A DNA stretch of 64,000 nt, taken from the UHGV virus genome UHGV-1558314. One strand, given 5' to 3'. Origin of the DNA: a virus. Below the pieces are notes generated by a model. The model saw only the letters and a list, made by a program, of their open reading frames with translations, did not search any database and was not told the DNA's origin. This document shows positions 10,842 through 58,111 of this stretch, piece after piece (within the stretch, counting starts at the first letter, position 1; the number at the start of each line of letters is the position of its first letter). Made by a program: the position numbers and the translations under genes.

Positions 10842-10882
10842 TGTAACAGTGCATTTAAGTGTTTTAACAGTTTTATGTATAA

Positions 10883-23474: not shown

Positions 23475-24494
23475 CTATTGCTTATGCCAGCCATATGATG
23501 CCTGACCAGCATCATACACTTCTACAAAACCATGGTCGTACATAAAATCTTCATTACGAGTGCCCTTGCCCCCATTAGTACCAAGAATACGGTCTGCACC
23601 ATGCATAAGCAGCATATTATTTGTGATATGTTGCTTTGTCAGCATATTGAACCAATGTTTGCTATATGACAAGCCAAGACCATCAAAGCCCAGCTTTGTG
23701 TACACGCCACCATCAAACTTGCTCAAATCACAATACGACAACACAGATTCAGGGTCATATGTCTTGATAAAGTGCTTGAATATGCGTTCGGCGCCACCTA
23801 CGACTTTTGTTGCTGCACAAAGACGCAGTAGTTCATACTGATATCGCTTATTGTATCGTGGACGACCAAATGTCATAAGCTGATGTATGACATAGCCGCC
23901 AAGCAATTCAAGTGGATGGCCTTCAATCAACGCAAGATTGATAAAATTGCCTGAGCACTTGCCTTGCAAATGATGTTCAATCAAAAATTGATTTGCAGTA
24001 TACTTGTCAATTTCAACAACTTTAAGCTTGCGAGCATATACAATCTTTGATTTGTCTACGATTTGATGCTTGATGTGATTGATAACTTTCTTGGCGTCAT
24101 CCCAATCCCACACATGAATGCAATGAAAGCCTGCAGCTTTTGCAATGTCTGTTTTCTTTGCATGAATATCACAAGGCAAATGCGAATCTTTTGCAGCATG
24201 CATAAATAGATGCTCAAATGAATGCGTGCTATTATGTGAAAATGTGGGATTGATGTTGATGACGATGTTGTCATGTCTAAAATCGAAGACTTCATCACCA
24301 ATAACAAAGTTGCGCTCAAAATCTATACCGACATGTTTGAGTAATACTTGATGCCACACATCTTTATAGGCTGATTCAAGATTGCTTAGCTCATCACAGT
24401 TTGCAATATTTTTGTAACGTTGAATAGCAGCATCAAAGTCAAGATTGACTTCAGCGTAGTCTGCATTTTTATCGTAGTGAAATTTTGAGCTCAT
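23475..24494 (-). CDS. Homing-endonuclease-like protein, family paralog 1 (Vsr/DUF559-like nuclease motif)
   Basis: IVININPTFSHNSTHSF ... GFHCIHVWDWDD and C-terminal VEVYDAGQ shared with paralogs; ATG at 24492-24494. Confidence 0.75.
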   Translation of the reverse strand: MSSKFHYDKNADYAEVNLDFDAAIQRYKNIANCDELSNLESAYKDVWHQVLLKHVGIDFERNFVIGDEVFDFRHDNIVININPTFSHNSTHSFEHLFMHAAKDSHLPCDIHAKKTDIAKAAGFHCIHVWDWDDAKKVINHIKHQIVDKSKIVYARKLKVVEIDKYTANQFLIEHHLQGKCSGNFINLALIEGHPLELLGGYVIHQLMTFGRPRYNKRYQYELLRLCAATKVVGGAERIFKHFIKTYDPESVLSYCDLSKFDGGVYTKLGFDGLGLSYSKHWFNMLTKQHITNNMLLMHGADRILGTNGGKGTRNEDFMYDHGFVEVYDAGQASYGWHKQ

Positions 24495-24515
24495 GTGTAT
24501 AATTTGTATGAGATT

Positions 24516-24544
24516 ATTGTACAACATGCAAATGCATGTTGCAT
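24516..24544 (-). promoter_or_regulatory. Sigma70-like promoter (ATGCAA-N17-TACAAT)
   Basis: Plus attgtacaac at 24516-24525, ttgcat at 24539-24544. Confidence 0.5.
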
Positions 24545-24598
24545 TTGATGCAAAGTACTGCGTACACAACATAAAGTACAAGTTTGCTTTTGACAGAC

Positions 24599-25621
24599 TT
24601 ACTTTGTATTGCTACGCGTCATTGTTAAATGACCGCAATCATACACATCAACTTCTGTTTTGCCAAGCATGCATGTATGACAATTTATTTTGAAATCTAC
24701 TGCAGTGTAGTCAGGATAGTTTAGCGGAGATTCTTTTGACAAATCAATTTCAATTGTGTCAGTAGTTTTAAGTTGTTCAGTGCCTGCAATGATATCTGCA
24801 ATGAGATTGATAACATCTTCTTGTGAATCCCAGTCAAACACAGTTATGCAACGATAGCCTGCATCAAGCGCAAGTTTTGTTTTGTTGTAATGGTATTGCG
24901 CATCAAGTGGCTCATTTTTGTCAGACAATTTTGTTGCATATCGAAACCCAAGCGTGCTGTTATGCGATACGGTAGGATTGATTTCTACAAGCAATTTATG
25001 TGTGCCATCAATATCATATGACAAATCATATGAATAACGTTGAATTCTAACTGCGTCAAGCTGCATGTCAATGTGTAAATGACGCAATATTATTGCATGC
25101 CAATGCTTGTTGATGCCCGATATTATATTTGCAGCTTCCATGCATTTTGGATGCATTACAAAATACGGCACGCCAAAGCGTTCTTGTATTGTTTTGTATG
25201 CTTTTGCATTAGAATCTTTACCATAAATGCTGCCATAACGCTTAAGCTTTGTAGCAATCAACTTGTCTATGTCACCCATAGCATTGCCAAAGCGCTCAAT
25301 CTTATGCTGTTTAATGGCATCTTTGTCGCCAAACATATGACCATATCGAGACATCTTTGTTGCTTTGACTGCATTGATGTTGCAACCTGCACCATATCGA
25401 GCATGCATAGTTTGCATGCGTTTAGCAATGTGCTCTTGTGATTGCTTAATTTGTTCGGTGCCAAATTTGCGCAAATTATTGATACGCTTAGTAACATCTT
25501 GTTTAATGACTGAATGCGTGGTTGTTCGCTTGCCAAGTCTTACACATTCTGTAGTTTTGAGCAATGTATCTCGTTCAAACTCAATTTGTGCAATTCGTGC
25601 AACAATTTCTTTAGATGTCAT
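24599..25621 (-). CDS. Homing-endonuclease-like protein, paralog 2 (tandem K/R-Y/F-G repeats + Vsr-like nuclease motif)
   Basis: Repeats ...MSRYGHMFGD...IERFGNAMGD...LKRYGSIYGKD...; LLVEINPTVSHNSTLGF ... GYRCITVFDWD ... VDVYDCGH; ATG at 25619-25621. Confidence 0.75.
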   Translation of the reverse strand: MTSKEIVARIAQIEFERDTLLKTTECVRLGKRTTTHSVIKQDVTKRINNLRKFGTEQIKQSQEHIAKRMQTMHARYGAGCNINAVKATKMSRYGHMFGDKDAIKQHKIERFGNAMGDIDKLIATKLKRYGSIYGKDSNAKAYKTIQERFGVPYFVMHPKCMEAANIISGINKHWHAIILRHLHIDMQLDAVRIQRYSYDLSYDIDGTHKLLVEINPTVSHNSTLGFRYATKLSDKNEPLDAQYHYNKTKLALDAGYRCITVFDWDSQEDVINLIADIIAGTEQLKTTDTIEIDLSKESPLNYPDYTAVDFKINCHTCMLGKTEVDVYDCGHLTMTRSNTK

Positions 25622-25640
25622 TTTTAATAGCATATTGATA

Positions 25641-25670
25641 ATTATACAACATACAAATGAGTTTTGCATT
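25641..25670 (-). promoter_or_regulatory. Sigma70-like promoter (-10 TATAAT variant)
   Basis: Plus attatacaac at 25641-25650, ttgcat at 25665-25670. Confidence 0.4.
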
Positions 25671-25700
25671 TTTGATGTAGCAATTGCTTGCACAGTTTGC

Positions 25701-25737
25701 AAAAAAGAACCGCTTGCAATCTAATTGCAAGCGGTTC
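25701..25737 (-). terminator. Rho-independent terminator (14-bp stem + U tract on minus strand)
   Basis: aaaaaa gaaccgcttgcaat cta attgcaagcggttc. Confidence 0.7.
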
Positions 25738-27682: not shown

Positions 27683-27770
27683 GATTGAATTTGTTTGTTA
27701 TTGAAAGTGAAACATATATTTCTGTATAATATGTATAGAACTACTGATATTGATTGAATTGTGAAAATGG

Positions 27771-29060
27771 TCATTTTTCAATCTTTTTGAGCAATGCATG
27801 ACCGCAATCATAGACTTCGACGAAGCCTGAAGCAATCAATGAGTCAACATCTATAGAAGACGTTCGTATAATATGTTCGTGTGTCTTGATATTGTATAGA
27901 TGACACTGAACCCATGTTTTGACGACTTCATAATTTGGATACAATCGAGGGTCTTCTTTTGACAAATCAAGTTCTATGACATCATCAGTTTTGAGCTGCT
28001 CAGTTTTGTTTATGACATCTCTAATGTGCAGCAACATATCATATCTACAATCCCAGTCAAATATTGTTATACATCGATAGCCATTGCGTGCTGCAACATC
28101 TGTTTTGAATTTGTGAGCATACGCAGGTTTGGCGTCATTATCAACAGAATGCCCAGTTATGTAACCAAAGCCCTTTGTTGCATTGTGTGTAACAGTTGGA
28201 TTGATTTCAATTACAACAGCATCTTTTCGCAAATCATATAACAAGTTCTCAATAGGATGCTCAGTAACAAAATCAAGATTGCAAGAATGTTTCAAATCCC
28301 ATTGCCACGACATATTGATGTTTGATGTCAACCTTGCAGATGCTTGCGGCAATTGCAATGCATGTTCTACACCATAGCGTTCACGTAATGTTGCATGAGC
28401 CCTTTGCATATTTTGCATTGCGGGACCCCAATGCTCAAATTTTGTAGCATTTATCTTTGCAATTTTGTCTGGTAGCTTATTTGTACTATCTACACCATAT
28501 TTAATAAGACAACTGATGCGAATATTGTATTGTCGTTTTATTCGAGAATGTGACGTAGCACATCTACTAAATCGTTCAAATGGTGTTGATGCAATCAATG
28601 CATCTCGTTCTGACTCAAGAGCTTTGACATGTTCAAGCACTTCTGCTGGTACATTATCATAGTCAATCACATATTGCTGACGTGGTTGCGTTACATGAGT
28701 TTTGCCGTGTGTCTTAAGCTTATTGATTTGTATGCTATACTTTCTGCGTATATGTGGATGTCTTGATGCATCAGATTGCGCAATTTCATGCTCTCGTTGC
28801 TCTTCAAGTTTAGCTATTTGCTCAACAATAGCTGGTTCAATGTCTGGTTTGTCTGATATGACTATGTTTTTAAGCTCATCAAGACGCTTGTTGAGATATT
28901 TGACACGTCTTGTATATGTTATCTTTGCAACTTGATGGTTTGTATGATGCTTGCCTACTTGCTGTTCTGGTTGATTCAGCGTGTCATCAAGGCGTTGCTT
29001 AGCGAGCTCAAATTCATTATCAAGCCATGCTTTATGCGCATCAAATTCATCTTGTGTCAT
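27771..29060 (-). CDS. Homing-endonuclease-like protein, paralog 3
   Basis: VVIEINPTVTHNATKGFGY ... GYRCITIFDWDCRYD ... VEVYDCGHALL. Confidence 0.75.
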   Translation of the reverse strand: MTQDEFDAHKAWLDNEFELAKQRLDDTLNQPEQQVGKHHTNHQVAKITYTRRVKYLNKRLDELKNIVISDKPDIEPAIVEQIAKLEEQREHEIAQSDASRHPHIRRKYSIQINKLKTHGKTHVTQPRQQYVIDYDNVPAEVLEHVKALESERDALIASTPFERFSRCATSHSRIKRQYNIRISCLIKYGVDSTNKLPDKIAKINATKFEHWGPAMQNMQRAHATLRERYGVEHALQLPQASARLTSNINMSWQWDLKHSCNLDFVTEHPIENLLYDLRKDAVVIEINPTVTHNATKGFGYITGHSVDNDAKPAYAHKFKTDVAARNGYRCITIFDWDCRYDMLLHIRDVINKTEQLKTDDVIELDLSKEDPRLYPNYEVVKTWVQCHLYNIKTHEHIIRTSSIDVDSLIASGFVEVYDCGHALLKKIEK

Positions 29061-29806: not shown

Positions 29807-30556
29807 TCATCGTACAGTGAATGACTTATCATCATCTTCTGTAGTAGTCGGGTCATCAATTACATCGTGGCCAATGCCTGACTCTGGTTCTGGTTCTGGT
29901 TCCGGTTCCGGTTCCGGTTCTGGTTCTGGTTCCGGTTCTGGTTCCGGTTCTGGTTCCGGTTCTGGTTCCGGTTCTGGTTCCGGTTCTGGTTCAGGTTCTG
30001 GTTCCGGTTCCGGTTCTGGTTCTGGTTCCGGTTCTGGTTCCGGCTTGGGCTCTGGCTTGGGCTCTGGCTTGGGCTTCGATGAATAATCAAACATCTTATG
30101 AATCCATTTGCACCACCATTTGCGACATACATGTGTGCCATCATGATAATACGCTTGCAGCTCCATTGGAATTGCATGATATGCTTTGTCATGTGACATA
30201 CCTTTGAATACTCGCAAGTACACATAGCACAAGCAATATGCAATGTAGTACATAAGCGGTGATGCAAGCAGCCACCACCAGCTAAGCACATTGCATGCTG
30301 CAAGCACAATAAGTACAAGCAACGTCGCAAGTGTTACGAAGATGAATTGCTTTGCATGCACAGCTTCATGCTTCAATGTCTCAGAATATCTACTAAGTGT
30401 GTCATCATATGACTTATCACTTCTTATGAAGCACATTGCACACAACGACATTGCATAATAATGTGAAAATGGAATGTATGGCTGGTCGATGACAAGCATT
30501 GGTCCAGCAAACCACAGTCGCCACTGAGATTTCTTTGGCAGTGTTGCAGTTTTCAT
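29807..30556 (-). CDS. HExxH-motif membrane protein with C-terminal (KPEP)/(PE)n repeat tract
   Basis: [10 protein letters not shown] followed by hydrophobic helices; C-terminal about 60-aa PE repeat encoded by the hexanucleotide SSR. Confidence 0.7.
29884..30074. repeat. Hexanucleotide microsatellite (GGTTCY)n about 30 units plus (GGCTTGGGCTCT)n
   Basis: Direct reading of ggttctggttccggttcc...; encodes (PE)n on minus strand. Confidence 0.9.
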
Positions 30557-30619
30557 AAAATGATGTTTATTGTTGATGATGAAGACTGAAGAGCTTTGGC
30601 TCTTCAGTCTATCAATTTG

Positions 30620-33457: not shown

Positions 33458-33560
33458 GTTCGTTATCGTATTTGTAAATTGTGAAATGTTGCTTTGTTTG
33501 ATTATAACTTGATATATGTATGTATATGATGACATCAAACATGTTGTTGACCAAAATCAA

Positions 33561-41053: not shown

Positions 41054-42172
41054 TCATAGTAATGATGCTTGTAAAATGTCTATAATGTGCTCATCAGTTT
41101 CACATAAATCTGTATCACTTATTATGCAATATGCAGACAATTCAGTAGATGCATTAACATATGCAGTCATTGCAGCAGCTTTTGCTATGACTATATCATC
41201 ATGCAGCCATTTAGCAGGCTTTATTTCAACAACAATTTGCGCGTTATTAAAATGCACAACAAAATCCGCGATATATACATGTGTAGCACTATTGAACACA
41301 TACTTACACCTTGCAGTTTCTATTGAATAGTGTAACTTATTGCGTTCACAAAAGTGTATAAATTTGCGTTCATTGTTTGAACGAAACGACGCTTTAGCTG
41401 ATAAACAGTATTTTGCAGTTTGAACATAGCCTCTCATGCAGTTCATAAATGGCTGCAATGACATTATGTCTCGACCATTTAACAATGCTCTATGCTGTGC
41501 TTCTGCACGTCTACGTTTAACTTCTGGTTTAGCATCTGTAATTTTGCGAGTAGCACGTATACGTTCTTTAACACCAGGTCGAGCCATGATTGCTTTTGCA
41601 GAAGCACTTCGATGCGCATGTGTTTCAGGCCTTGCGTTAGCAATTAGCATCCCATGCAATTGAGTGTCTTTAACTTCTTGACGCTGCATTGCTATTCGAG
41701 TGCTCTGTGAAATCTTTTGCCTAACTGCAGGATTTGACATTGCACGTTTTGCGCGTTCTGACGCCTTTACACGTAGTTCTGTATTATTTGCATACATGGC
41801 ACGTTGAGTATTACTAATTTTGGTGCCAATGCGTTGTTTATATTCTGCATCTGCAAAGTATTTTGCATTTCTGCATGCATGACTGCAAACATCGCCGTCA
41901 CCATAGCCACGTGTTACACACCACCATGTTAATTGCTTGCCACATATAGAACATGTTGGGATATCTGAGTCATCTTTAATTTCACATAGATATTTGTCAT
42001 ACCATTGCTTCAATGAATAGCCTACAATAGGTTCAGCCTTTCTACTAAAATACGTGCTAAATATCCATGTATCAAGTTCAGGCACGTATAACTGAAACTT
42101 TGTACGTGTTATTTGCTTAACAAATTTGTCCCAATTCTTAGCGGCATTGCGCTTAGCGTCTTCAGCAGTCAT
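41054..42172 (-). CDS. Zinc-finger / tandem-repeat DNA-binding protein with C-terminal PD-(D/E)xK nuclease domain (homing-endonuclease-like)
   Basis: CSICGK...CSHAC; four to five about 17-aa repeats (KISNTQRAM, KASERAKRAM, KISQSTRIAM, SASAKAIMA); YIADFVV...QIVVEIKP. Confidence 0.7.
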   Translation of the reverse strand: MTAEDAKRNAAKNWDKFVKQITRTKFQLYVPELDTWIFSTYFSRKAEPIVGYSLKQWYDKYLCEIKDDSDIPTCSICGKQLTWWCVTRGYGDGDVCSHACRNAKYFADAEYKQRIGTKISNTQRAMYANNTELRVKASERAKRAMSNPAVRQKISQSTRIAMQRQEVKDTQLHGMLIANARPETHAHRSASAKAIMARPGVKERIRATRKITDAKPEVKRRRAEAQHRALLNGRDIMSLQPFMNCMRGYVQTAKYCLSAKASFRSNNERKFIHFCERNKLHYSIETARCKYVFNSATHVYIADFVVHFNNAQIVVEIKPAKWLHDDIVIAKAAAMTAYVNASTELSAYCIISDTDLCETDEHIIDILQASLL

Positions 42173-43073: not shown

Positions 43074-43523
43074 TCATTTGAAGAATCGTTCAGTTATGAT
43101 TTTGAACTTAACATTTTGTTGTTTGCAATATGCAATTGCGGCATTCCACTTTGCGACATTTTTGCAATATGTTTCTTTCGCATAATTTGACGCAGACCGA
43201 CTTGGGCATTGCGTTTCATGCCATGGTTTCACCTCAACGACATATGTAGAATCTGCGGTTTTGAACAAAAAGTCGGGCCAATATGTGTGCGTTACGCCAT
43301 CAAGCTCATATGCAATTGGCAGTGTCTCAGATGACCAAGCAAGAACCTTTGAACTCATATCGCAAAGCTTGCAAAATCTGAATTCAAGTGAACTGCGGTA
43401 TATGATTGTCTTGTCTGTCGCGTCTTTGCCTTTGTACTTATCTGGGTTCATGCATCTGTAGTAGCCTTGCTTGTAGGGCCCTGATTTGTTTGGCTTAAGT
43501 TGCTTAATGTTCATTGCAGTCAC
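43074..43523 (-). CDS. PD-(D/E)xK-family nuclease (149 aa)
   Basis: YWPDFLF ... YVVEVKP (PD ... ExK) core. Confidence 0.7.
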   Translation of the reverse strand: MTAMNIKQLKPNKSGPYKQGYYRCMNPDKYKGKDATDKTIIYRSSLEFRFCKLCDMSSKVLAWSSETLPIAYELDGVTHTYWPDFLFKTADSTYVVEVKPWHETQCPSRSASNYAKETYCKNVAKWNAAIAYCKQQNVKFKIITERFFK

Positions 43524-45856: not shown

Positions 45857-46480
45857 TTACGCTTTGTTGATTTCAGATGGCATTCTGAACTTGATGTCAT
45901 TGTACACAAATGTCAATGTGAATGTCATCACGTTCTGGTCTACACGAGTTTTGTCATATGTGAGTTCAGAAATTGCAGAAAACACGACATCAATGAAGTC
46001 GATGCCAAACAATGGTTTCTTTGCACCACCATATGTTGCTACAAATCTGCAAGGCTGAAAGTAGATAGTTTCACGTTTATCATTAGCGTACACAAACAGC
46101 GACTCCAAGCAACAAAAATAATTGAGCCCACCATTCGTCAATCTGCATGTCACTTGGATTCGCTTATCAAGTGCTTGATGAATTGTTTTGCTGCCCTTAT
46201 GAAACTGTGTAATCGACTTCTTCATGCCGCTGTCATCAAGAACTTTATTGACATTTTGAGTGACAATGGGCATTGATATGCCCATCAATGACACAGACTG
46301 AATTGAATCATGCAACAAGTCATTGATGTCATAAATGATTTGTGTTGGTTGTTGCACAAACACTTTATTGTATGTCTCAGCAATGTCTTGCGGAATCAAA
46401 TCAATTGGCAAGTCAAAGCGAAACTGGTCAGAACGTGTATCGAGAATGAGCATATTTTTGATAATTTGTTTATGTACCAT
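45857..46480 (-). CDS. Hypothetical protein (207 aa)
   Basis: ORF track; no motif. Confidence 0.65.
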   Translation of the reverse strand: MVHKQIIKNMLILDTRSDQFRFDLPIDLIPQDIAETYNKVFVQQPTQIIYDINDLLHDSIQSVSLMGISMPIVTQNVNKVLDDSGMKKSITQFHKGSKTIHQALDKRIQVTCRLTNGGLNYFCCLESLFVYANDKRETIYFQPCRFVATYGGAKKPLFGIDFIDVVFSAISELTYDKTRVDQNVMTFTLTFVYNDIKFRMPSEINKA

Positions 46481-47736
46481 TAACTGTCATACGACCAGTG
46501 ACCACAGTCATACACTGGCACAAATCCAGTGTCAAGCATTTCTTGCTCATTAAAGTCATCATCAAGCAAGTGTTCACCCGATTTTGTATTAACCCAGTGC
46601 TTCTTAATTGTGCATTCATCAACCGCAAAGGGATTAAGTACATTGTCAGTACAGTCAATGAACGCATCATTCAAATGCGCTTCAATGATATGAAGCACAA
46701 TTTCTTGGTCGTGCCAATCAAATATCATGAGTGGCGTGTAGCCACATGCAATTGCAAGTTGTTGCTTCCACCAATGATAGTTTGGCTATTTTGCTTCTGC
46801 AGCATTTCGTTTAAAGCCATACACGCTATTATGAGTATGCGTCGGGTTAACGTCAATTAGCAGATTGCCATAATACAGGTCATATGACGTTATGCCAACA
46901 CCATGTTCAAACTCAAAATGCACACCAAGATGTTCTTCAATGTATGATTGCCACCATCTGTTTGGCGCAGATATGATTTGCCCATTTGCTTGCATACATT
47001 TATTTGTCATGCAAAACCATGGCACACCGTAACGTTCCATACAGGTTTTTGAAATTGCAGCAAGCCATTCATCTTTGTCTCTATGCGGCCATGCATAACC
47101 ATAACGCAGACGGCATGTTTGTTGAGCTTTAGCAACGATTGGCGCTAAACGTTCACCGTATATTTCACGTTTAGTTGCGATGGCTTTGCGTGGATTAGTC
47201 CATCCAGCATCACCCCATCGCTCAAGCTTCGTTTGCTGAGATTTTTCAACAATCAGTTCAAGATTCTCACCATATTTTTGACGACGAGTTTGCATTGCTG
47301 CAACATAATCTGTAATGCATCTATGGCCATACAAACGTTCTTTTGTCGCACATTGAACATCTACTGGACCTTGTGGATAGCCATAGCGTTCCATATTCGT
47401 TTGACGAATATGTGCTTTATCGCCATATGAACTGCCGTAGCGTGCAACTTTAGTGGCAATTGTTTGCTTGATGTTGCCTGCTTTAGAACCATAACGAGCT
47501 TCTTTAGTTGCTACGCATTTTTGTTTGACTTCTGCTCTGTTCCAATTATGCTCAACGCCATGTTTACGAAGATGGCCAATTTTCATGTTGTACACGTTTT
47601 TGATATGACCATGAGATGTCTTACGTGGTGCATATCGTACAAATGGTGTTTCTGCAAGCAACTTATCTCGTTCAGCTTCAAGCTCTTTAATTCGAGCTTC
47701 AAGAGCTTCACCAGTCAAAGGCTCTACATGTTTCAT
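46480..47736 (-). pseudogene. Homing-endonuclease-like paralog 4 interrupted by a single in-frame TAG (46786-46788)
   Basis: ORFs 46786..47736 and 46480..46728 are in the same frame; intervening codons read *PNYHWWKQQLAIACGYTPLMIFDW and align with intact paralogs. Confidence 0.7.
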
Positions 47737-48233
47737 TCGTGTTTGCCAGTTTGAAATAACGAATCAATTGGGATGTGAATACCAGGTTTGGATTGAATGT
47801 TCCATCCGCGCGCCAAACCATTAAGTACGCAGCTCGTAAGGTAAGAAAACGCGTTTTGAGTTACTGTTGGGTCAAACATTTGCCACTTTGACGCCAAAAT
47901 TAGCATGGCTTCTGCTGCGACATCTGCTTGCAAGTCTTTGTCTCTGTAGTATAAACGTCTCTGCACATGTTTGATAAGCAACTCAAACATGTGTATAAGT
48001 TTATCTGACAGCTGCCCAGATACTTTGCATGCGCATATTTCTGCACAAAGTTCTTTGTTGTTAATGTAATAGTTTGATGGCTGACCACGTTTCTTTGTGT
48101 TTGCTGCTTCTTCACGAAGTTGGTCTTCAAGCTGTGTCAACATGTCATCATCTGACACATATTGAATATGCTTATCTTCTGGCAGTTTAGATTCTATTGG
48201 TTGTAAGTTTTGCAGTGGCATAACAGTGAGCAT
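47733..48233 (-). CDS. Late-transcription sigma factor, T4 gp55-like
   Basis: PSNYYINNKEL matches T4 gp55 N-terminal KYNYVNNKEL; QNAFSYLTSCVLNGLARG region similar; ATG at 48231-48233. Confidence 0.7.
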   Translation of the reverse strand: MLTVMPLQNLQPIESKLPEDKHIQYVSDDDMLTQLEDQLREEAANTKKRGQPSNYYINNKELCAEICACKVSGQLSDKLIHMFELLIKHVQRRLYYRDKDLQADVAAEAMLILASKWQMFDPTVTQNAFSYLTSCVLNGLARGWNIQSKPGIHIPIDSLFQTGKHE

Positions 48234-51369: not shown

Positions 51370-52662
51370 CTACAACAATGACGGCACTCGTTGAGTTTCA
51401 AGTGGGTCGCTGACATTGATGCCTGTGTATGCAACAAGTCGTTGTATTGGGCCAAGTACGAGTTTTTCGAACATGAGTCGTTTGTTCATTGGCGGCACAT
51501 CTGGCATATACTTCGGTGTCGGCATTTCGCCTGGTGCAAAGCCAAATGCATCGCAATATTGACGAGAGCCAATTGGGATATTTGACAAATCTGACTTTGC
51601 TCTGTCAACAAAGTAGTAGAACACTCGACCGCCTTCAATCAATGGGTATCGTGTTTCCAATCCATGAGCTTTTACAAGACGATTATGCCAACAACATGCC
51701 CTGTACTGAGGCAGTACACCTTTTGCTAACTGCCATTCGCCATCATAGCTTAACACATAGTCATGATACTTGTTTGCATTGACATATGCACAAAGTTTTT
51801 CCAAGTCTTGCTCAGCTTCAAAGCGTTTCCATAATTTCTGTATGAGCTTTGGATATGTCGCAGAAGTCAATTCACCTCTGAACATTTTTTTGAATGCATA
51901 ATCAAGCATTTGCCTAACAAGCATTGATGAGCCTGTTTGAATAAGTTCGATGCCCTTACCTTGAATATGCTCAGTAGGGTCTTCAAATACTCGACCATCT
52001 ACATATATTTGAGACTTCAAATACTTTTTCTTTTGGGCAAATAATGCAGTATCAGAAATCGTCTCAAGGTCGAACATTAGCACAGAATCTCCATGACGCT
52101 TTGCAAGGTCATTTGCATATGACCTATTGAACAGTTCTTCCATACGATATTTGAATATCGCAAGAATCAAGTCATACCAATTTTTGCCTGTGTAACCAAT
52201 TGACTTAACTGTCGGCTCAAAGTGAATGTACAAAGAGTCTGTGTCAATATACAGCACTTTGTCTTCATAGGGTTCTTGCTTTGGCGACACAGACAAATCA
52301 AAATTGCCTTTCAATTTGGGGTCATTGCGCAGCTTTTCATGCAATTCATAATCACACCACCATTTATTGTTGAGATAGTCATTTGCTACTCGTTCGCCAA
52401 AGTGAATGAAGTTACGCCCTTCTGCAGTAATTGATTCTGCAACTGCCATATTGAAGAAGTGATAGAATCGATTACTTGTCGCACCATAAATACTGTTCCT
52501 TAGTGTTTTGAACGTCACCTGCAATGACGCATGTTTAAGCGACTCTTGTATTGCAAAGCCACGTAATTCAAATAGACGCTCAGTAGACAACTGACTCAAA
52601 TCGCCAGTTAAATCTACTCCATCTATTTCAATTTTTGACATGTCTATCTGAGCTTCTGCCAT
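51370..52662 (-). CDS. Family-B DNA polymerase, C-terminal part (motifs B and C)
   Basis: FKTLRNSIYGA (KxxxNSxYG) and LYIDTDSLYI (DTDS). Confidence 0.9.
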   Translation of the reverse strand: MAEAQIDMSKIEIDGVDLTGDLSQLSTERLFELRGFAIQESLKHASLQVTFKTLRNSIYGATSNRFYHFFNMAVAESITAEGRNFIHFGERVANDYLNNKWWCDYELHEKLRNDPKLKGNFDLSVSPKQEPYEDKVLYIDTDSLYIHFEPTVKSIGYTGKNWYDLILAIFKYRMEELFNRSYANDLAKRHGDSVLMFDLETISDTALFAQKKKYLKSQIYVDGRVFEDPTEHIQGKGIELIQTGSSMLVRQMLDYAFKKMFRGELTSATYPKLIQKLWKRFEAEQDLEKLCAYVNANKYHDYVLSYDGEWQLAKGVLPQYRACCWHNRLVKAHGLETRYPLIEGGRVFYYFVDRAKSDLSNIPIGSRQYCDAFGFAPGEMPTPKYMPDVPPMNKRLMFEKLVLGPIQRLVAYTGINVSDPLETQRVPSLL

Positions 52663-52683
52663 AAGGTATCTTATTTAATTATT

Positions 52684-52712
52684 ATTGTACAACACACATT
52701 GCAATTTTGCAA
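52684..52712 (-). promoter_or_regulatory. Sigma70-like promoter (TTGCAA-N17-TACAAT)
   Basis: Plus attgtacaac at 52684-52693, ttgcaa at 52707-52712. Confidence 0.55.
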
Positions 52713-52726
52713 TATGTGTGTTAAAC

Positions 52727-52762
52727 AAAAATGCAGCAGCAGAACATCTGCTGCTGCATCGG
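52727..52762 (-). terminator. Rho-independent terminator
   Basis: aaacaaaa atgcagcagcag aacat ctgctgctgcat. Confidence 0.6.
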
Positions 52763-52801
52763 CAGGTATCTTCACATGTATTTGAGTTGATTACGATGTG
52801 A

Positions 52802-53629
52802 TTAGAATGGCAGGTCACCATCGTCACCTGCAGCGCCAAATTCAGCTGCAATGTCATATACCAACGTCATTGCGATTCGCAAATCGCGCTTCTTAGACTT
52901 CAGGCGCATGATATCATGACCAGAATTGTTTGTGATGACTGAACATTCAAACTCTTCATTGCCATCAATAAATGACAACATTGATTTGTGAATTGTGATT
53001 GGCGATAAATCAGATGGGTAATTTGCATCAATCACATATTCAAAGTTGTTGTTCTTGGCAATTAGTCCTCGTTCAGTCGTACGAATCTCAATGCCGGGCA
53101 ATTCCTTATCACCAGTATTCAATGAGCCATACGATGACATGATGCCAAAGTGATTTGACGTCAAATCGAGTTTTCTTAGATTTGTTGTGCTGTCAAACAA
53201 CATTGACATATCATTGTCAGACAGCTCAAAGTAGCCAAGTGATGGCATTGAACAAACCTGATTGATTTTGAGCTGATTGTTTGAGATTACAATGAGCTCT
53301 GCAATTGTATCTGTGCCAATTTGTTTGACATAGATTTCAATCATTGCAGATGAGCCAAATGCAGCAAGTACTCGATTGTTAAACTGTGTGCCGTTGTAAA
53401 TGAGCGCCTTGACTGTGACATCTTTGAGCGTCGACTCATAATGCTCACAAATATCAAGAACATTGAGCGTCTGTGATTTTACAAAGCTGCTGTTGCCAGC
53501 ATCAGTTCTGATTCGCTGGTCATTAAGTGAAAAGCTAAGCTTGCCATCGCACTTTAATGATGATGCAAACAATGCTCGCAGCATATCAATGTTTGCATTG
53601 CGTAACGTAATTTTGTTCAAAGTTTCCAT
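52802..53629 (-). CDS. Hypothetical protein (275 aa) with SSB-like acidic C-terminal tail
   Basis: C-terminus ...GAAGDDGDLPF resembles the DDDIPF SSB tail; body not recognisably OB-fold; function unknown. Confidence 0.65.
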   Translation of the reverse strand: METLNKITLRNANIDMLRALFASSLKCDGKLSFSLNDQRIRTDAGNSSFVKSQTLNVLDICEHYESTLKDVTVKALIYNGTQFNNRVLAAFGSSAMIEIYVKQIGTDTIAELIVISNNQLKINQVCSMPSLGYFELSDNDMSMLFDSTTNLRKLDLTSNHFGIMSSYGSLNTGDKELPGIEIRTTERGLIAKNNNFEYVIDANYPSDLSPITIHKSMLSFIDGNEEFECSVITNNSGHDIMRLKSKKRDLRIAMTLVYDIAAEFGAAGDDGDLPF

Positions 53630-53697
53630 CTTGTATCTATGTTGTTGATTTTCAATTTAATATATTGAACAACATTTGTTGACATTTTGCAACATTG

Positions 53698-54072
53698 TCA
53701 TCGATTGTCGCCTGACCCATGCAGTACGCCTCGTAATTTTCGAGACTGTAGTTTCTGAATGTTAAGCTGACAAATGTCAGTTAAGCTGTAGCCCAAATCA
53801 TGTGCAAGAGTTGCAGCATACCACATGACATCGCTAAGCTCTTTTGCGATTTCCTTGCGAATGTCTTCATTGTCAAAATCACCATTCTTGTCTCGAATGA
53901 CTTTTTTGACTTTGTCTGCAACTTCGCCTGCTTCACCCGTCAAGCCAAGCGTTGGATAGACAATTGCAGCTGATTTAGGATACACTGCGCTATCAAGTGC
54001 AGCAGTCTGATATTCATCAATGGTTGAAATACAAGTGTGGTCAATTACACCATGTTCATCTCGTTTAAGCAT
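53698..54072 (-). CDS. mazG: MazG-like nucleotide pyrophosphohydrolase
   Basis: LTGEAGEVADKVKK ... KELSDVMWYAATLAHDLGYSL. Confidence 0.75.
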   Translation of the reverse strand: MLKRDEHGVIDHTCISTIDEYQTAALDSAVYPKSAAIVYPTLGLTGEAGEVADKVKKVIRDKNGDFDNEDIRKEIAKELSDVMWYAATLAHDLGYSLTDICQLNIQKLQSRKLRGVLHGSGDNR

Positions 54073-54073
54073 A

Positions 54074-54565
54074 TCATTTACGTTTTTGTTTGACTCTTAA
54101 TCGTTTTTGCATAAATGCTCTTGTAGCTTCACCAAAAGCCATCTCGTCTCGTTCGCCACCACAAAGCTTTGCAAGCTTATTGAATGTGTCTTGGTCAATC
54201 ATTGTGTACGTTGAGTTGTTGACCACATGCAATGCAAACTGAATCAGCGGTGCGCCTGGCTGCAAGCAGAACGGCTCTTTGCCCGCATTGTACACTGCAA
54301 GATGAATCTCGCCATGATAGTCTGAATCTACAAACTCACTTGTTTTGATGATAAGATGATTTCGTGAAATGCCCGACTTATTGTAGGCAATCAATGCATG
54401 ACAGGCAGGCACAAGTGCTTTGATGCCAGATGGAATTGCAATGCCCTCACCAGGTTGCAGCATTGTTTGCACAAAATCATTGGGTATGCAAAAGTCCCAT
54501 GCGCCAGATTCTGCTGTTGACTTAAAAGGACTTTCTACATTTCTGCATTTTGCAAAGAATAACAT
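54074..54565 (-). CDS. dUTPase / dCTP deaminase superfamily protein
   Basis: GAWDFC (motif 1-like), IAIPSGIKAL, VDSDYHGEI (motif 3), PGAPLIQFAL (motif 4-like). Confidence 0.75.
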   Translation of the reverse strand: MLFFAKCRNVESPFKSTAESGAWDFCIPNDFVQTMLQPGEGIAIPSGIKALVPACHALIAYNKSGISRNHLIIKTSEFVDSDYHGEIHLAVYNAGKEPFCLQPGAPLIQFALHVVNNSTYTMIDQDTFNKLAKLCGGERDEMAFGEATRAFMQKRLRVKQKRK

Positions 54566-54588
54566 ATTAAGTATGTGTTTGTATGTTG

Positions 54589-54939
54589 TTAGTACATTTC
54601 TCGTTTAACAAGAGCTTTGCGTTTTGAGCGTAACCCTGCCCTATTACGTAATTCTACTGACCAATCACGAATCATTTGCCATGCAATCCCACCACGTTGA
54701 ATACCACCGTGCTTGAACATTTCATTGCAAATACCTTGAATAAACACCGCATCAGACTTTGTCAATGCGTCAACAATTTGACCATGGTTGTCTTCTGTCT
54801 TGACATCATTACAGAGCTTAAGTTCATCTACTGAAAGTTCGCCAAGCAGCTCATAGTAGTATATGAGAGCTTTGCGTGCGGCAATTGCTTTTCTTGAATT
54901 GCCAGAATAAGACAAAGTTACATGTTTGCTCATATTCAA
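54589..54939 (-). CDS. Hypothetical protein (116 aa)
   Basis: ORF track; no motif. Confidence 0.55.
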   Translation of the reverse strand: MNMSKHVTLSYSGNSRKAIAARKALIYYYELLGELSVDELKLCNDVKTEDNHGQIVDALTKSDAVFIQGICNEMFKHGGIQRGGIAWQMIRDWSVELRNRAGLRSKRKALVKREMY

Positions 54940-54959
54940 TTATTGTTATTATATGTTGA

Positions 54960-54988
54960 TATTGTACAACATGTGTTAACTTTTTGCA
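54960..54988 (-). promoter_or_regulatory. Sigma70-like promoter (ATGCAA-N17-TACAAT)
   Basis: Plus attgtacaac at 54960-54969, ttgcat at 54983-54988. Confidence 0.5.
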
Positions 54989-56175
54989 TGACCACAATCA
55001 TACACCGCAACATAGCCAGCATCAATCATCTCTTGCTCATCTTGTCCGCAATCTTCAATATGTTCTTTTGTCTTCAAATGACACCAGTGTTTGCGAATTG
55101 TTGACTTGTCATCTGACAATTGCGGATTGAGTGCGAAGTCAGTTGAGTCTACTGGTTCACCTGCAAGATGCTTTCTAATGACATCAATGACAACATCAAA
55201 TGGCATCCAGTCAAACACTGTAATGCAAGTGTAGCTGTGTTTGATAGCAAGTTGTGTTTTGTTAAAATGGTTGTCATATGGTCGTTGCCAATTATGATTT
55301 GCATTGAACACAATATTTGCAAAACTACGCGTGCTATTATGAGAAATAGTTGGGTTAAGTTCAATTAGCAACTTATGCGATTTGCAAACAATGTCATATG
55401 ACAATGACGTGTTCTCAAATGTAAATTCTTGCTCAAAATGCACATCAAGGTTATCAAATAGCATGTTAAGCCTTGTGCATATTTTTGTATTGTGTGCAGA
55501 CTTTGCTTTAGATTTTGCTCTGCATTGAGGCAATTGGCATGGCCACACTACACCATGACGTGACAATGTTGTTGCACGAATTGCGTCAAGATTCGTTGAT
55601 GGATTGCCATATCGAGCTATTCGAGTTTGCCTTGCTTTGTCTATATTGCCTGGGCCTGCATTGCCCCATCGCTGCAACTTTGTTTGTCGAGCTTGTTCAT
55701 GATTGCTGTAATATGGGTCTCCATATCGTTCAAGCTTTGTTTGCTTTAACTTACTCATGTCGCCAAGCCCATTGCCATACTTAGCACGCTTTGTTTCTAT
55801 GCCTTTCTTTAGATTGCCTCGTTTGTTGCCATATTTTGCAATGTTGTGTGCATTACGTTTTTCAATGTCACCAAACCCATTGCCATATCGTGCAAATTTT
55901 GTTGCTTGCGCTTTTTCAAAATTGACTGCTAATGTGCCATAACGAGCATACTTAGTTGCTTTGCCCTTATCAACGACTTCTTTACGATGCAATGCAGCTT
56001 CAACACCATATTTTCGCAAATTTGTAATTTTTGCATTGTATCGTCGTCTAATTGTTGCATGAGTGTTGTTACGAGACCCTGTTCTGACATATTCAGTTGC
56101 AGCAAGTTCAGCATCACGTAACTGCTCAAGTTCTGCAATTCGTTGTTCAAGTTCAGCGCCTACAAGTGGTTTCAT
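54976..56175 (-). CDS. Homing-endonuclease-like protein, paralog 5, between the two polymerase ORFs
   Basis: Seven about 17-aa repeats with (K/R)YG core; LLIELNPTISHNSTRSF ... SYTCITVFDW ... VAVYDCGH. Confidence 0.75.
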   Translation of the reverse strand: MKPLVGAELEQRIAELEQLRDAELAATEYVRTGSRNNTHATIRRRYNAKITNLRKYGVEAALHRKEVVDKGKATKYARYGTLAVNFEKAQATKFARYGNGFGDIEKRNAHNIAKYGNKRGNLKKGIETKRAKYGNGLGDMSKLKQTKLERYGDPYYSNHEQARQTKLQRWGNAGPGNIDKARQTRIARYGNPSTNLDAIRATTLSRHGVVWPCQLPQCRAKSKAKSAHNTKICTRLNMLFDNLDVHFEQEFTFENTSLSYDIVCKSHKLLIELNPTISHNSTRSFANIVFNANHNWQRPYDNHFNKTQLAIKHSYTCITVFDWMPFDVVIDVIRKHLAGEPVDSTDFALNPQLSDDKSTIRKHWCHLKTKEHIEDCGQDEQEMIDAGYVAVYDCGHAKS

Positions 56176-56183
56176 GTGTTGTT

Positions 56184-57689
56184 TTACAATTTGATTGCGC
56201 CTCTACGAGCAAGCTCTTCTTCAATCAATCGAACATGATTGTTAGAATACCAGAACTGAATTTTTTTGTGATAATTACGCTTGTCTCCAAGTTCTTCCTG
56301 TACTGCTTTGTACATGCTTTTTTCATGATTGTCATACAAGCAGTCATTAACGGACACAAAGTACTCTGGCAATGACTTGTAATGCGCAATTTCATCAGGA
56401 TTTGTCAGACGTCTGATAAAGTTATCCGGTGATACATTGCATGATTTCATTGAACTTGGATAGAGTGAATTTGCATCAACACAAACAACTTTATGAGCCC
56501 AATGGTTAAATGGTTGCTTCACAAAGCCACCTTCAAATGCATGCACAACATTTTCTGGACCGCCTTGAGCACATACGACTTTGCCACCATATTTGTTGTA
56601 CAAATATGTCATCATGACGCCCTCAGATTGCTTAACTGGGCCTTGACAGTGGTTCATATCAATGTTTGACACATTTGACAAGCCCATCACATTTGATATC
56701 AAGTCAGTTTTTGCAGCAATCATCGCATTGACCATCGTATCGACAGCATTATATGCAATGAACGTGCATGGATGATACAAATACAGCTCTTTAAGTGTAC
56801 AATCATAGGGCAGCTTACCTACACCGAACATACGATGTGCAATATAGTCAAGTCGCAATGACTCTTTTTGCCACACTGAATAGTCGTATGTGTCCATGAG
56901 CTGCATGTAGTCATCAATGTACTTGTGATATGGCATACCATTGCCCCAGACAGTTCTGCCAACTGGAGATGCCAATGCTAAATCAATATTGTGCATTGCG
57001 CATCGATTTTTGACATAGATGTTGTCGAAGCCATTGATGTTCCAGCCTGTCAATGCAGGAATGTTTTTGAAGAGCTTAGTCACCCAAAAATGCAACAATT
57101 CATGCTCATTTGCATGTTGAAAGATTTTGACAGTTGGATGTTCTTTCAAATACGCAGCAAAGCAATGTTGACCCATGTACTCTTGAATGATGCCATTGAC
57201 AAACTCAAATGCATCATCCAGTGTTGGGTTTTGTTTGCCACAGCTTTTGCGCAAATCATCATCATTCAACAAGTCAACAGTAGTCTGAATGACACAATTG
57301 CATTGTTCATCGCATGTACTTATTGCATTAATGGGCATTTCAGCTTTGTCAGGCTTTGGAAAGCCATTGCCAATTTCAGTCTCAATATCGTAAAAGTATA
57401 ACTTTGGTCTACGATAAGCAAACAATTCAACTTTGTCAGCTTCAGGCAATTCAAATAAGAATTGCAGCAAGTCAAATTGATTGAATCGTTTTGCTGTGAC
57501 TCGAGTCACAGGCAATTTGCGCCAATCTTGAATATCTGCATATTGCGGCTCTACATGGTCTGATATTTGCCATACTGGAAATTGATATGGCTGTTCACAG
57601 ACTGGGTATGTTTTGATGTCAATGCCACCTTGCTCATTAACGTATGAAACTTCAATGCCATGTGACAAATATGCTACGTCGACAATCAT
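56184..57689 (-). CDS. Family-B DNA polymerase, N-terminal part (3'-5' exonuclease motifs + polymerase motif A)
   Basis: LYFYDIETE (Exo I), NINGFDNIYV (Exo II), YNAVDTMV (Exo III), VCVDANSLYPSS (motif A); ATG at 57687-57689. Confidence 0.9.
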   Translation of the reverse strand: MIVDVAYLSHGIEVSYVNEQGGIDIKTYPVCEQPYQFPVWQISDHVEPQYADIQDWRKLPVTRVTAKRFNQFDLLQFLFELPEADKVELFAYRRPKLYFYDIETEIGNGFPKPDKAEMPINAISTCDEQCNCVIQTTVDLLNDDDLRKSCGKQNPTLDDAFEFVNGIIQEYMGQHCFAAYLKEHPTVKIFQHANEHELLHFWVTKLFKNIPALTGWNINGFDNIYVKNRCAMHNIDLALASPVGRTVWGNGMPYHKYIDDYMQLMDTYDYSVWQKESLRLDYIAHRMFGVGKLPYDCTLKELYLYHPCTFIAYNAVDTMVNAMIAAKTDLISNVMGLSNVSNIDMNHCQGPVKQSEGVMMTYLYNKYGGKVVCAQGGPENVVHAFEGGFVKQPFNHWAHKVVCVDANSLYPSSMKSCNVSPDNFIRRLTNPDEIAHYKSLPEYFVSVNDCLYDNHEKSMYKAVQEELGDKRNYHKKIQFWYSNNHVRLIEEELARRGAIKL

Positions 57690-57700
57690 ATTATTATCTT

Positions 57701-58111
57701 TTAGAATAGAGATATTGTACAACAATTTGATTCAGGTTGCCATTCTACAATATGCGCATCAAAGTGTTTGTTAAGCCAATGTGCAAGTATGTGTCTATGA
57801 CAAAATGCAGATGGTCTGCACCAACATAACAATACAATGTCTCGTTCGCCTGCAAAAATCTTTATGCGATGCAGCATCAAACTTATCTGTGACAATGCAG
57901 CGTCAAGTTTTGCTGCATATTGCTCTGCATATTGTGCATTGTCAAGCAAGCCTGCTTTATGCAAACGAACAAGTGACATGTAATCAGGCATGACGTCAGT
58001 CCATGTAAAATCTGCTATGAAGCCCTTAGGCTTTGTTGCAGACACTTGAACAAGAAATGCGTTATCAGGCAGATGCCTGCATGCATAATATGAAGTCAAG
58101 ATTCTTGTCAT
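57701..58111 (-). CDS. Hypothetical protein (136 aa), DUF488-like
   Basis: DIVLLCWCRPSAFCHRHILAHWL resembles the conserved DUF488 core; tentative. Confidence 0.55.
   Translation of the reverse strand: MTRILTSYYACRHLPDNAFLVQVSATKPKGFIADFTWTDVMPDYMSLVRLHKAGLLDNAQYAEQYAAKLDAALSQISLMLHRIKIFAGERDIVLLCWCRPSAFCHRHILAHWLNKHFDAHIVEWQPESNCCTISLF
57714..57742 (-). promoter_or_regulatory. Sigma70-like promoter (-10 TACAAT) for polymerase N-part
   Basis: Plus attgtacaac at 57714-57723; -35-like ttgcca at 57737-57742. Confidence 0.45.

What the first reader, a model, noticed from the sequence alone, without database searches (positions are those of the whole stretch)
46786..46788. Single in-frame TAG interrupting homing-endonuclease-like paralog 4
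ORFs 46786..47736 and 46480..46728 are in one frame and separated only by a TAG; the bridging codons align with intact paralogs. This is either a decaying selfish gene or amber read-through/suppression. TAA and TGA are the stops I saw at other gene ends.
Basis: seen in the sequence. Interest (0 to 1): 0.5.

Follow-up and report, generated by a model that had tools for sequence, protein, structure and literature searches.

The report
Fresh amber mutation in phage homing-endonuclease gene
One copy of a selfish "homing endonuclease" gene in a T4-like gut phage has just been knocked out by a single C-to-T change that turned a glutamine codon into a TAG stop, which is ordinary gene decay and not a change in the genetic code.

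Summary
On the minus strand, a 316-codon ORF (47736..46789) ends at TAG (46788..46786). The same frame then runs 101 more conserved codons to TAA at 46480.

All 16 close relatives examined have Gln at this position, and six related contigs read CAG there. The nearest intact allele (L017) differs from the window gene at only 4 of 1257 nt, one being this C>T. The TAG is therefore a very recent point mutation.

The protein is a free-standing Hef-like / EDxHD (Vsr-fold) homing endonuclease:
- Paralog 5 matches phage genes annotated "Hef-like homing endonuclease".

The TAG falls in a loop inside the nuclease core. The truncated product loses helix alpha2, strand beta4, invariant H321 and W341 (D340 is invariant among the window paralogs), and the C-terminal domain.

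Code change or suppression is not supported:
- Nine other ORFs in the window end in TAG, including tail sheath and the PolB C-part.
- No other gene carries an in-frame TAG.
- The phage tRNA cluster just outside the window has no CUA-anticodon tRNA.

Verdict: ordinary early decay of a selfish gene, low interest. Side note: recombination breakpoints in three other alleles cluster at this same codon.

The parts
46786..47736 (-). Truncated N-terminal ORF of the homing-endonuclease gene (316 codons plus TAG). It encodes a conserved N-terminal coiled coil, helical RYG repeats (DUF7487, presumed DNA-binding) and the first half of the Vsr-like nuclease core (alpha1, beta1-beta3, with D286, N297, H302). 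Its ATG overlaps the TGA of the upstream gp55-like late sigma gene (ATGA).
46786..46788 (-). The amber codon (codon 317). It is derived from CAG (Gln) by one C>T transition at window position 46788.
   Evidence: CAG in L003, L004, L005, L006, L008 and L017. Gln in all 16 related proteins read.
46480..46785 (-). In-frame remainder of the gene (101 sense codons plus TAA). It encodes helix alpha2 (H321, K324), strand beta4 and FDW (D340, W341) of the nuclease core, plus the C-terminal beta domain (KHW...VYDCGH). It is still free of stops and frameshifts. Its TAA overlaps the ATG of the next gene (TAATG).
46640..46640 (-). The only other change specific to this lineage in the gene. It is a C>T giving A364V, downstream of the TAG. 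All 18 related protein sequences read that cover this residue have Ala here.
54976..56175 (-). Intact paralog (399 aa), lying between the two halves of the split PolB gene.
27771..29060 (-). Intact paralog (429 aa), upstream of the major head protein gene.
24599..25702 (-). Paralog (367 aa), downstream of the major head protein gene. It has a shortened C-terminal region.
23475..24581 (-). Distant paralog (368 aa) without the RYG repeats. It links the family to annotated Hef-like homing endonucleases, and it ends in a genuine TAG.

Best explanation
A free-standing Hef-like (EDxHD, Vsr-fold) homing-endonuclease gene in a roughly 175-kb T4-like phage has very recently acquired a nonsense mutation, CAG(Gln317) to TAG. 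The sample names suggest a human-gut metagenome. The phage uses the standard code, so translation stops at codon 317. The 316-residue product keeps the N-terminal repeat (DNA-binding) region and three strands of the nuclease core. It lacks helix alpha2, strand beta4, several family-conserved residues and the C-terminal domain, so it is most likely catalytically dead.

This is the first step of the degeneration phase of the homing-endonuclease life cycle. The rest of the frame is still intact only because too little time has passed.

Shown: the stop, its derivation from CAG, the fold, and the use of TAG as a terminator elsewhere. Inferred: loss of activity, and a possible loss of translational coupling to the downstream gene, whose ATG overlaps the original TAA.
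For: 1. The stop is derived. Fourteen of the 23 members of the 90% protein cluster (P0001, P0030-P0042) and the two 396-aa alleles P0003/P0044 were read, and all have Q at this position. All are intact: twelve are 418 aa, two are 399 and 415 aa, and two are 396 aa.

2. The DNA of six related contigs reads CAG where the window reads TAG.

3. The event is recent. The intact allele on L017 differs from the window gene at 4 of 1257 nt: 47082, 46888, 46788 (C>T, Q317*) and 46640 (C>T, A364V).

4. The stop is reproducible. The Logan ERR1136818 contig and the ENA ERZ27260853 contig (175,395 bp) are 100% identical to the window over 5.6-7 kb, TAG included.

5. Identity of the gene:
   - AlphaFold2 model of the intact ortholog: alpha-beta-beta-beta, a loop at 300-315 with pLDDT below 50, then alpha-beta-alpha.
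   - Foldseek top hit 3R3P (I-Bth0305I catalytic domain), probability 1.0, TM 0.71.
   - PHROG 3339 'homing endonuclease'.
   - Paralog 5 hits GenBank genes annotated 'Hef-like homing endonuclease'.
   - PMC3239194 places phage Hef-type enzymes in the EDxHD family.

6. The code is standard. TAG ends 10 of 67 ORFs. The tail sheath ends at PHROG profile position 951/962 and is followed by a 12-bp hairpin. The PolB C-part ends at 372/382, and its TAG is conserved in relative L006. ORFs of 972 to 1316 codons contain no TAG.

7. Selfish-element behaviour. There are five paralogs in 64 kb. Homologs sit in unrelated contexts. In L017 the endonuclease gene and the upstream sigma gene are nearly identical to the window, with 6 mismatches in about 1.8 kb. 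Divergence further downstream is patchy, reaching up to about 8% per 200 nt.
Against: The 101 codons after the TAG show no further damage, which is also what a tolerated or read-through stop would look like. With only 4 substitutions separating this allele from an intact one, there is no power to detect relaxed selection.

Read-level support could not be examined. The three assemblies carrying TAG may derive from the same reads.

Only about 77 kb of the roughly 175-kb genome was scanned for tRNAs.

Loss of nuclease activity is inferred from a model, not measured.
Confidence: 0.85

Rival explanations
1. Amber suppression or TAG reassignment. The phage or its host decodes TAG as Gln through a suppressor tRNA or a code-15-like recoding, and the gene is expressed full length.
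For: The ancestral residue is Gln, the amino acid most often assigned to TAG in recoded phages (own knowledge). The downstream frame is intact. The phage carries its own tRNA-Gln(UUG).
Against: Nine other ORFs terminate at TAG, and those with family matches end at their homologs' ends: sheath, PolB C-part and PHROG 29329. The sheath TAG is followed by a terminator-like hairpin.

There is no other in-frame TAG in roughly 60 kb of coding sequence that includes late structural genes.

No tRNA-CUA was found among the 7 tRNAs seen, nor in the 77 kb scanned. All orthologs carry CAG, not TAG.
Confidence: 0.03
2. Sequencing or assembly error, or a minority variant. The true or majority base is C, and the gene is intact in the population.
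For: The TAG allele was found only in contigs that are 99.99-100% identical to each other. All of them may come from one sample, since the ERR1136818 contigs and the ERZ27260853 contig are essentially the same sequence. Every other sample has CAG.
Against: Three separate assemblies agree on T: Logan, an ENA MEGAHIT-style contig, and the window's own source of 175,564 bp. A consensus substitution error at one base in a well-assembled 175-kb contig is unusual. A second private C>T (A364V) in the same gene shows that this lineage does carry real private substitutions.
Confidence: 0.06
3. The truncated allele is retained because it is useful. The 316-residue DNA-binding fragment might act as a site-specific binder (immunity or repressor function). 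Alternatively, the amber codon throttles a toxic nuclease to trace levels through near-cognate reading of UAG by tRNA-Gln, which would restore the wild-type residue.
For: The N-terminal repeat domain is complete. The phage encodes tRNA-Gln(UUG). A near-cognate Gln insertion would regenerate the ancestral protein exactly (inference). A second allele (L002) is interrupted at the same spot.
Against: The TAG allele is a singleton among 23 cluster members, with no sign of spread or conservation. The L002 interruption is a frameshift giving TAA, so it cannot be rescued by amber read-through. There is no notable RNA structure downstream (z -1.75), and CAG alleles share the same sequence there.
Confidence: 0.05

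Closest known systems
I-Bth0305I (EDxHD homing endonuclease family; PDB 3R3P; PMC3239194)
   Different: I-Bth0305I is encoded inside a group I intron in recA. This gene is free-standing, between a late sigma factor gene and structural genes. The N-terminal region here is a coiled coil plus about nine helical RYG repeats (Pfam DUF7487), not NUMOD/HTH motifs. It also has an extra C-terminal beta domain (KHW...VYDCGH). There is no detectable sequence similarity to any PDB chain.
Hef and Hef-like free-standing homing endonucleases of T4-related, Vibrio and Campylobacter phages (Sandegren et al. 2005, cited in PMC2988022)
   Same: Both are free-standing genes present in multiple copies per phage genome. 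Paralog 5 of the window matches genes annotated 'Hef-like homing endonuclease', 'Hef34' and 'homing endonuclease' at E 1e-19 to 4e-25. PHROG 3339 and 559 also match.
   Different: The interrupted paralog itself gives no tblastn hit in 50,697 GenBank phage records. It is connected only through paralogy (E 2e-10) and fold. No activity or target site is known.
Defunct homing endonuclease genes, e.g. I-TevIII in the T4 nrdB intron (PMC2790892, PMC2988022), and the homing-degeneration-loss cycle
   Same: It is a selfish nuclease gene inactivated by mutation while intact copies persist in sister phages.
   Different: This is the earliest possible stage, with a single nonsense codon and everything else intact, rather than a deletion derivative.
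TAG-recoded phages (amber read as Gln, with a phage suppressor tRNA)
   Same: The TAG stands where relatives have Gln.
   Different: There is one TAG instead of many. TAG is used as a real terminator in the same genome. No suppressor tRNA was found.

Membership tests
EDxHD / Hef-like homing endonucleases | Vsr-like (PD-(D/E)xK-derived) catalytic fold | tested here: met
EDxHD / Hef-like homing endonucleases | Conserved active-site residues (E, D, N/H, H, D of the composite EDxHD motif) | tested here: inconclusive
   D286 and H302 are invariant and N297 is nearly invariant across 26 homologs, with I-Bth0305I-like spacing. The first E and the last D could not be assigned without a residue-level structural alignment. 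D340 is a candidate and lies after the TAG.
EDxHD / Hef-like homing endonucleases | Sequence homology to proteins already filed as Hef-like | tested here: met
   The link is indirect. Paralog 5 matches annotated Hef-like genes and PHROG 3339 at E 7e-42. The interrupted paralog matches paralog 5 at E 2e-10 and PHROG 3339 at E 7e-5. Its direct search against the phage records found nothing.
EDxHD / Hef-like homing endonucleases | Behaves as a mobile gene: variable presence or position, and transfer between genomes | tested here: met
   Five paralogs are inserted between core genes. A homolog sits in an unrelated neighbourhood. Three different allele types occupy the same locus. The endonuclease gene is near-identical in L017 while flanks further downstream diverge in patches. 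A copy-free allele of this locus was not looked for.
EDxHD / Hef-like homing endonucleases | Site-specific DNA cleavage that promotes homing | not testable with these tools
   This needs biochemistry or phage crosses.
TAG-reassigned (amber-recoded) phage genomes | Many in-frame TAG codons in conserved genes | tested here: not met
   This is the only long ORF pair joined by a TAG within one homologous gene. ORFs of 972-1316 codons contain none.
TAG-reassigned (amber-recoded) phage genomes | TAG not used as a terminator | tested here: not met
   Nine other ORFs end in TAG. The sheath, the PolB C-part and the PHROG 29329 protein end at the ends of their family profiles. The PolB TAG is conserved in L006.
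TAG-reassigned (amber-recoded) phage genomes | Phage-encoded suppressor tRNA (anticodon CUA) | tested here: not met
   There are no tRNAs in the window. The cluster 4-5 kb beyond the left end has Gly-UCC, Thr-UGU, Glu-UUC, Ser-UGA, Leu-CAA, Pro-UGG and Gln-UUG only. About 100 kb of the genome could not be read.
Programmed stop-codon read-through | The stop codon is conserved among orthologs | tested here: not met
   All intact orthologs carry CAG/Gln.
Programmed stop-codon read-through | Stimulatory RNA structure or context downstream | tested here: not met
   The 121 nt around and after the TAG fold at -30.1 kcal/mol, z -1.75, with 9 of 200 shuffles folding as well. The same downstream sequence is present in CAG alleles.

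The most novel reading that the evidence does not exclude
The amber codon may not be pure decay. It could act as an expression throttle, with rare near-cognate decoding of UAG by the phage's own tRNA-Gln(UUG) re-inserting the ancestral Gln. That would yield trace amounts of wild-type endonuclease plus an excess of a DNA-binding fragment. Separately, codon 317 may mark a recombination hotspot that shuffles N-terminal specificity modules onto a shared C-terminal half-nuclease module.
Probability: 0.04. Interest if true: 0.5.

Novelty: new member of a known kind. Interest (0 to 1): 0.1.

Why it matters
It matters little beyond annotation.

- The two ORFs 47736..46786 and 46728..46480 should be annotated as one pseudogene of a Hef-like homing endonuclease.
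- The genome should be translated with the standard code.
- The case is a clean snapshot of the very first step of homing-endonuclease decay: one transition, with the intact allele differing by four bases in another sample.
- It shows that the DUF7487 repeat proteins of uncultivated T4-like gut phages carry an EDxHD/Vsr-fold nuclease.
- The clustering of allele breakpoints at the same codon might interest people who study modular evolution of homing endonucleases.

Tried and rejected
Searches that returned nothing useful:
- Megablast of the locus, tblastn of the full read-through protein, and tblastn of its nuclease half against 50,697 phage records all gave no match. The phage has no close cultured relative. 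A neighbouring protein hits only Chryseobacterium jumbo phages at 34-35% identity.
- PDB sequence searches with the family profile and with the nuclease domain gave only chance hits.
- NCBIfam gave nothing.
- Rfam at gathering threshold on the window gave nothing.
- An exact 43-mer with C or T at the mutated base found nothing in JGI metagenome contigs. In IMG/VR a similar pattern found only the CAG relative.
- The search for related loci with the sigma factor recovered only that same IMG/VR contig.
Its contig was reached instead through the downstream gene.

Ideas considered and dropped:
- The 972-codon sheath ORF and the next ORF share a frame across a TAG. This was rejected as read-through because the sheath matches its profile to the end and is followed by a 12-bp hairpin and a separate ATG. 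Same-frame neighbours also occur across TGA and TAA.
- A dN/dS test for relaxed selection downstream of the TAG was dropped. Only one substitution separates the window from its nearest intact allele there. Comparison with L003 reflects divergence that predates the mutation.

Full report
**What is in the sequence**

The feature lies on the minus strand.
- An ATG at 47736, overlapping the TGA of the upstream gene as ATGA, opens 316 sense codons.
- These end at TAG, window 46788..46786.
- The same frame continues for 101 sense codons to TAA at 46482..46480. That TAA overlaps the ATG of the next gene (TAATG).

**The continuation is real coding sequence**

tblastn of the read-through product against the window aligns it end to end, across the TAG, with three full-length paralogs and partially with a fourth:

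| Paralog | Residues aligned | E-value |
|---|---|---|
| 54976-56175 | 2-413 | 1e-73 |
| 24599-25702 | 7-415 | 5e-35 |
| 27771-29060 | 5-413 | 4e-19 |
| 23475-24581 | 256-357 | 2e-10 |

In the five-paralog alignment, positions invariant among the paralogs lie after the TAG: H321, K324, A328, D340, W341, H380, V406, V408, Y409, D410 and G412. Across 26 homologs, W341 stays invariant and H321, A328, H380, V408, Y409, D410 and G412 are at least 90% conserved.

**Where the TAG came from**

The 316-aa product belongs to a 90%-identity cluster of 23 proteins.
- I read 14 members of that cluster (P0001, P0030-P0042) and the two 396-aa alleles P0003 and P0044.
- All are intact: twelve are 418 aa, two are 399 and 415 aa, and two are 396 aa.
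- All 16 have Gln at position 317, in the context ...AEAKQPNYHWWKQQ....
- At the DNA level, six related contigs read CAG where the window reads TAG: L003, L004, L005, L006 (an IMG/VR contig of 174.6 kb), L008 and L017.

The nearest intact allele is on L017 (ENA ERZ28658566, record name ZEEV15-1_SAMEA3664528). It differs from the window gene at only 4 of 1257 nt:

| Window position | Change | Note |
|---|---|---|
| 47082 | A in window, G in L017 | L017-specific Gly |
| 46888 | G in window, A in L017 | not examined further |
| 46788 | C>T | CAG to TAG (Q317*) |
| 46640 | C>T | Ala364 to Val; the other 18 relatives read that cover this residue have Ala |

The amber codon is therefore a single, very recent transition in an otherwise intact gene.

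The TAG is reproducible. The Logan assembly of ERR1136818 and the 175,395-bp ENA contig ERZ27260853:k119_42272 are 100% identical to the window over 5.6-7 kb, including the TAG. The window's own source is a 175,564-bp contig. Whether these assemblies rest on independent reads cannot be told here.

**What the gene is**

Sequence libraries say little.
- Pfam gives only DUF7487, which covers the RYG helical repeats.
- PHROGs gives family 3339, 'homing endonuclease'.
- NCBIfam and PDB sequence searches give nothing.

The AlphaFold2 model of the intact ortholog P0001, built with 26 aligned homologs (mean pLDDT 72), shows four parts:
- an N-terminal coiled coil;
- about nine helical hairpin repeats;
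- a compact domain: alpha 257-270, beta 275-280, beta 283-289, beta 292-296, a disordered loop 300-315, alpha 320-330, beta 334-338, alpha 344-355;
- a small C-terminal beta domain.

Structure searches place the compact domain clearly:

| Search | Hit | Score |
|---|---|---|
| Foldseek | 3R3P, I-Bth0305I catalytic domain | probability 1.0, TM 0.71 |

The paper describing I-Bth0305I (PMC3239194) defines the EDxHD family of Vsr-like homing endonucleases and explicitly includes phage Hef-type enzymes. Consistently, the most divergent paralog in the window (23475-24581) matches GenBank phage genes annotated 'Hef-like homing endonuclease', 'Hef34' or 'homing endonuclease'. These occur in Vibrio and Campylobacter phages, which carry 9-11 copies per genome.

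The gene is therefore a free-standing Hef-like/EDxHD homing endonuclease with an unusual DUF7487 repeat domain.

**Consequence of the stop**

Codon 317 sits at the end of the loop between beta3 and alpha2 of the nuclease core.
- The 316-residue product retains D286, N297 and H302.
- It loses alpha2 (H321, K324), beta4 with the FDW motif (D340, W341), and the whole C-terminal domain.
- I infer that it cannot fold into an active nuclease. This is not measured.
- Because the original TAA overlaps the next gene's ATG, the premature stop may also uncouple translation of the downstream 207-aa gene. This too is inference.

**Is TAG read as a sense codon here? No.**

- *Stop usage.* Among 67 non-overlapping ORFs in the window, stops are TAA 30, TGA 27 and TAG 10.
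- *TAG ends real genes at the right place.*
  - The tail sheath (30620-33538) matches PHROG 34521 up to position 951 of 962.
  - The C-terminal part of PolB (51370-52662) matches PHROG 1918 up to position 372 of 382.
  - The ORF at 62112-63995 matches PHROG 29329 up to position 1076 of 1092.
- *Supporting details.* The sheath TAG is followed by a perfect 12-bp hairpin. The PolB TAG is conserved in the relative L006.
- *No other in-frame TAG.* ORFs of 972, 1068, 1093 and 1316 codons contain none, and no other gene is split by a TAG.
- *tRNAs.* The window has none. The flank obtained through a neighbouring gene (L012) holds the phage tRNA cluster 4-5 kb beyond the left end. It contains Gly-UCC, Thr-UGU, Glu-UUC, Leu-CAA, Pro-UGG and Gln-UUG, plus a long-arm tRNA with anticodon UGA (Ser) seen only by Rfam. 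None has anticodon CUA.
- *Coverage.* About 77 of roughly 175 kb were covered in all.
- *RNA context.* The RNA downstream of the TAG is unremarkable (z -1.75) and is shared with CAG alleles.

Recoding, a suppressor tRNA and programmed read-through are thus unsupported.

**Selfish-element context**

The window is from a T4-like myovirus. It encodes a T4-type portal, a prohead protease, a sheath, gp2-like and gp13-like proteins, and a gp55-like late sigma factor. It is crowded with mobile nucleases:
- five Hef-like paralogs;
- two TnsA-N-like ORFs;
- an intein-like insertion in the ribonucleotide reductase gene;
- a PolB gene split into two ORFs with a paralog between them.

In L017, the endonuclease gene plus the sigma gene (about 1.8 kb) differ from the window at 6 positions. 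Divergence further downstream is patchy, reaching up to about 8% per 200 nt. That is the pattern expected after recent transfer of the element. Reviews of T4-type phages describe defunct endonuclease genes such as I-TevIII, and the homing-degeneration-loss cycle (PMC2988022, PMC2790892). A fresh nonsense allele fits that cycle and needs no new mechanism.

**An unexplained side observation**

Three other alleles change their relationship to the window allele within about 40 nt of codon 317.
- L002 is 55% identical in 46828-46784 and 100% identical in 46783-46739.
- L008 goes from 49% to 98% over the same two bins.
- L006 has 3 differences between 47000 and 46800, besides the TAG site itself, and then many from 46748 onward.

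L002 is itself broken at this spot: a 1-nt frame change produces a TAA overlapping the same site. Distinct N-terminal modules are therefore joined to one shared C-terminal module of about 100 codons, at a loop-coding position. This looks like a recombination junction or hotspot. It does not explain the window's TAG, because L017 carries the same two halves with CAG.

**Verdict**

This is a genuine in-frame amber codon produced by one recent C>T change in a Hef-like homing-endonuclease gene, read with the standard code. It is an ordinary pseudogenisation event.
- Confidence about 0.85.
- Remaining uncertainty is mainly read support (about 0.06) and marginal functional readings (about 0.05).
- Interest is low, 0.1.

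Noticed in passing
window 46740-46800 (codon 317 region); L002 1800-1870; L008 about 2290-2330; L006 about 5790-5840: Recombination breakpoints of three other alleles (L002, L008, L006) against the window allele fall within about 40 nt of the TAG codon. Different N-terminal/middle modules are joined to one shared C-terminal module of about 100 codons, at a loop-coding position inside the nuclease domain. It may be a recombination hotspot or module joint.
   Followed up: partly
L002 1820-1855 (Logan SRR20627582_95630): A second, independent disruption of the same gene at the same spot. A mosaic allele with a 1-nt frame change ends in TAA overlapping the position of the window's TAG. It is followed by the same 82-codon leftover ORF.
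   Followed up: partly
window 46200-48030 vs L017: The endonuclease gene plus the late sigma factor gene are nearly identical between two phages (6 differences in about 1.8 kb). Divergence further downstream is patchy, up to about 8% per 200 nt. This looks like a recent homing or co-conversion tract.
   Followed up: partly
window 51370-57725 (-): The family-B DNA polymerase is split into two ORFs: 56184-57725 (exonuclease/N part) and 51370-52662 (C part). They are separated by about 3.5 kb carrying a Hef-like paralog (54976-56175), a dUTPase-like ORF, a MazG-like ORF and two unknown ORFs.
   Followed up: partly
window 23475-29060 (-): The major head protein gene (25967-27682) is flanked by homing-endonuclease paralogs on both sides: 27771-29060 upstream, and a tandem pair 24599-25702 plus 23475-24581 downstream.
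   Followed up: no
window 7620-10901 (-): The ribonucleotide reductase large-subunit gene carries an intein-like insertion. Pfam Intein_splicing matches at residues 318-497, below the curated cut-off.
   Followed up: no
window 43074-43523 and 41054-42172 (-): Two ORFs have a TnsA-like endonuclease N-terminal domain (PF08722), next to gp2-like and portal genes. They are further candidate mobile nucleases.
   Followed up: no
L012 986-2372 (4-5 kb beyond the window's left end; ena:ERZ27260853:k119_42272): The phage tRNA cluster has 6 tRNAs called by ARAGORN, plus a long-variable-arm tRNA (anticodon UGA, L012 1757-1839) that only Rfam detects. A weak, sub-threshold permuted-tmRNA-like match lies at L012 986-1136 (E 0.04).
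   Followed up: partly
window 30556-30622 (-): The tail sheath gene ends in TAG and shares a frame with the next ORF (29807-30556). A perfect 12-bp hairpin (AGACTGAAGAGC...GCTCTTCAGTCT) lies between them, so this is an ordinary gene boundary.
   Followed up: yes
window 46788 and 46640: Both substitutions private to this lineage in the gene are C>T on the coding strand. This resembles a deamination-type signature, but n = 2.
   Followed up: no
family alignment A3, residues 1-30 of the endonuclease: The first 30 or so residues (LTGxALEARIKELExERDxLLAxTP, predicted coiled coil) are much better conserved across the family (mostly 60-93% identity) than the rest of the protein (about 30-50%), even between paralogs at different loci.
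   Followed up: no
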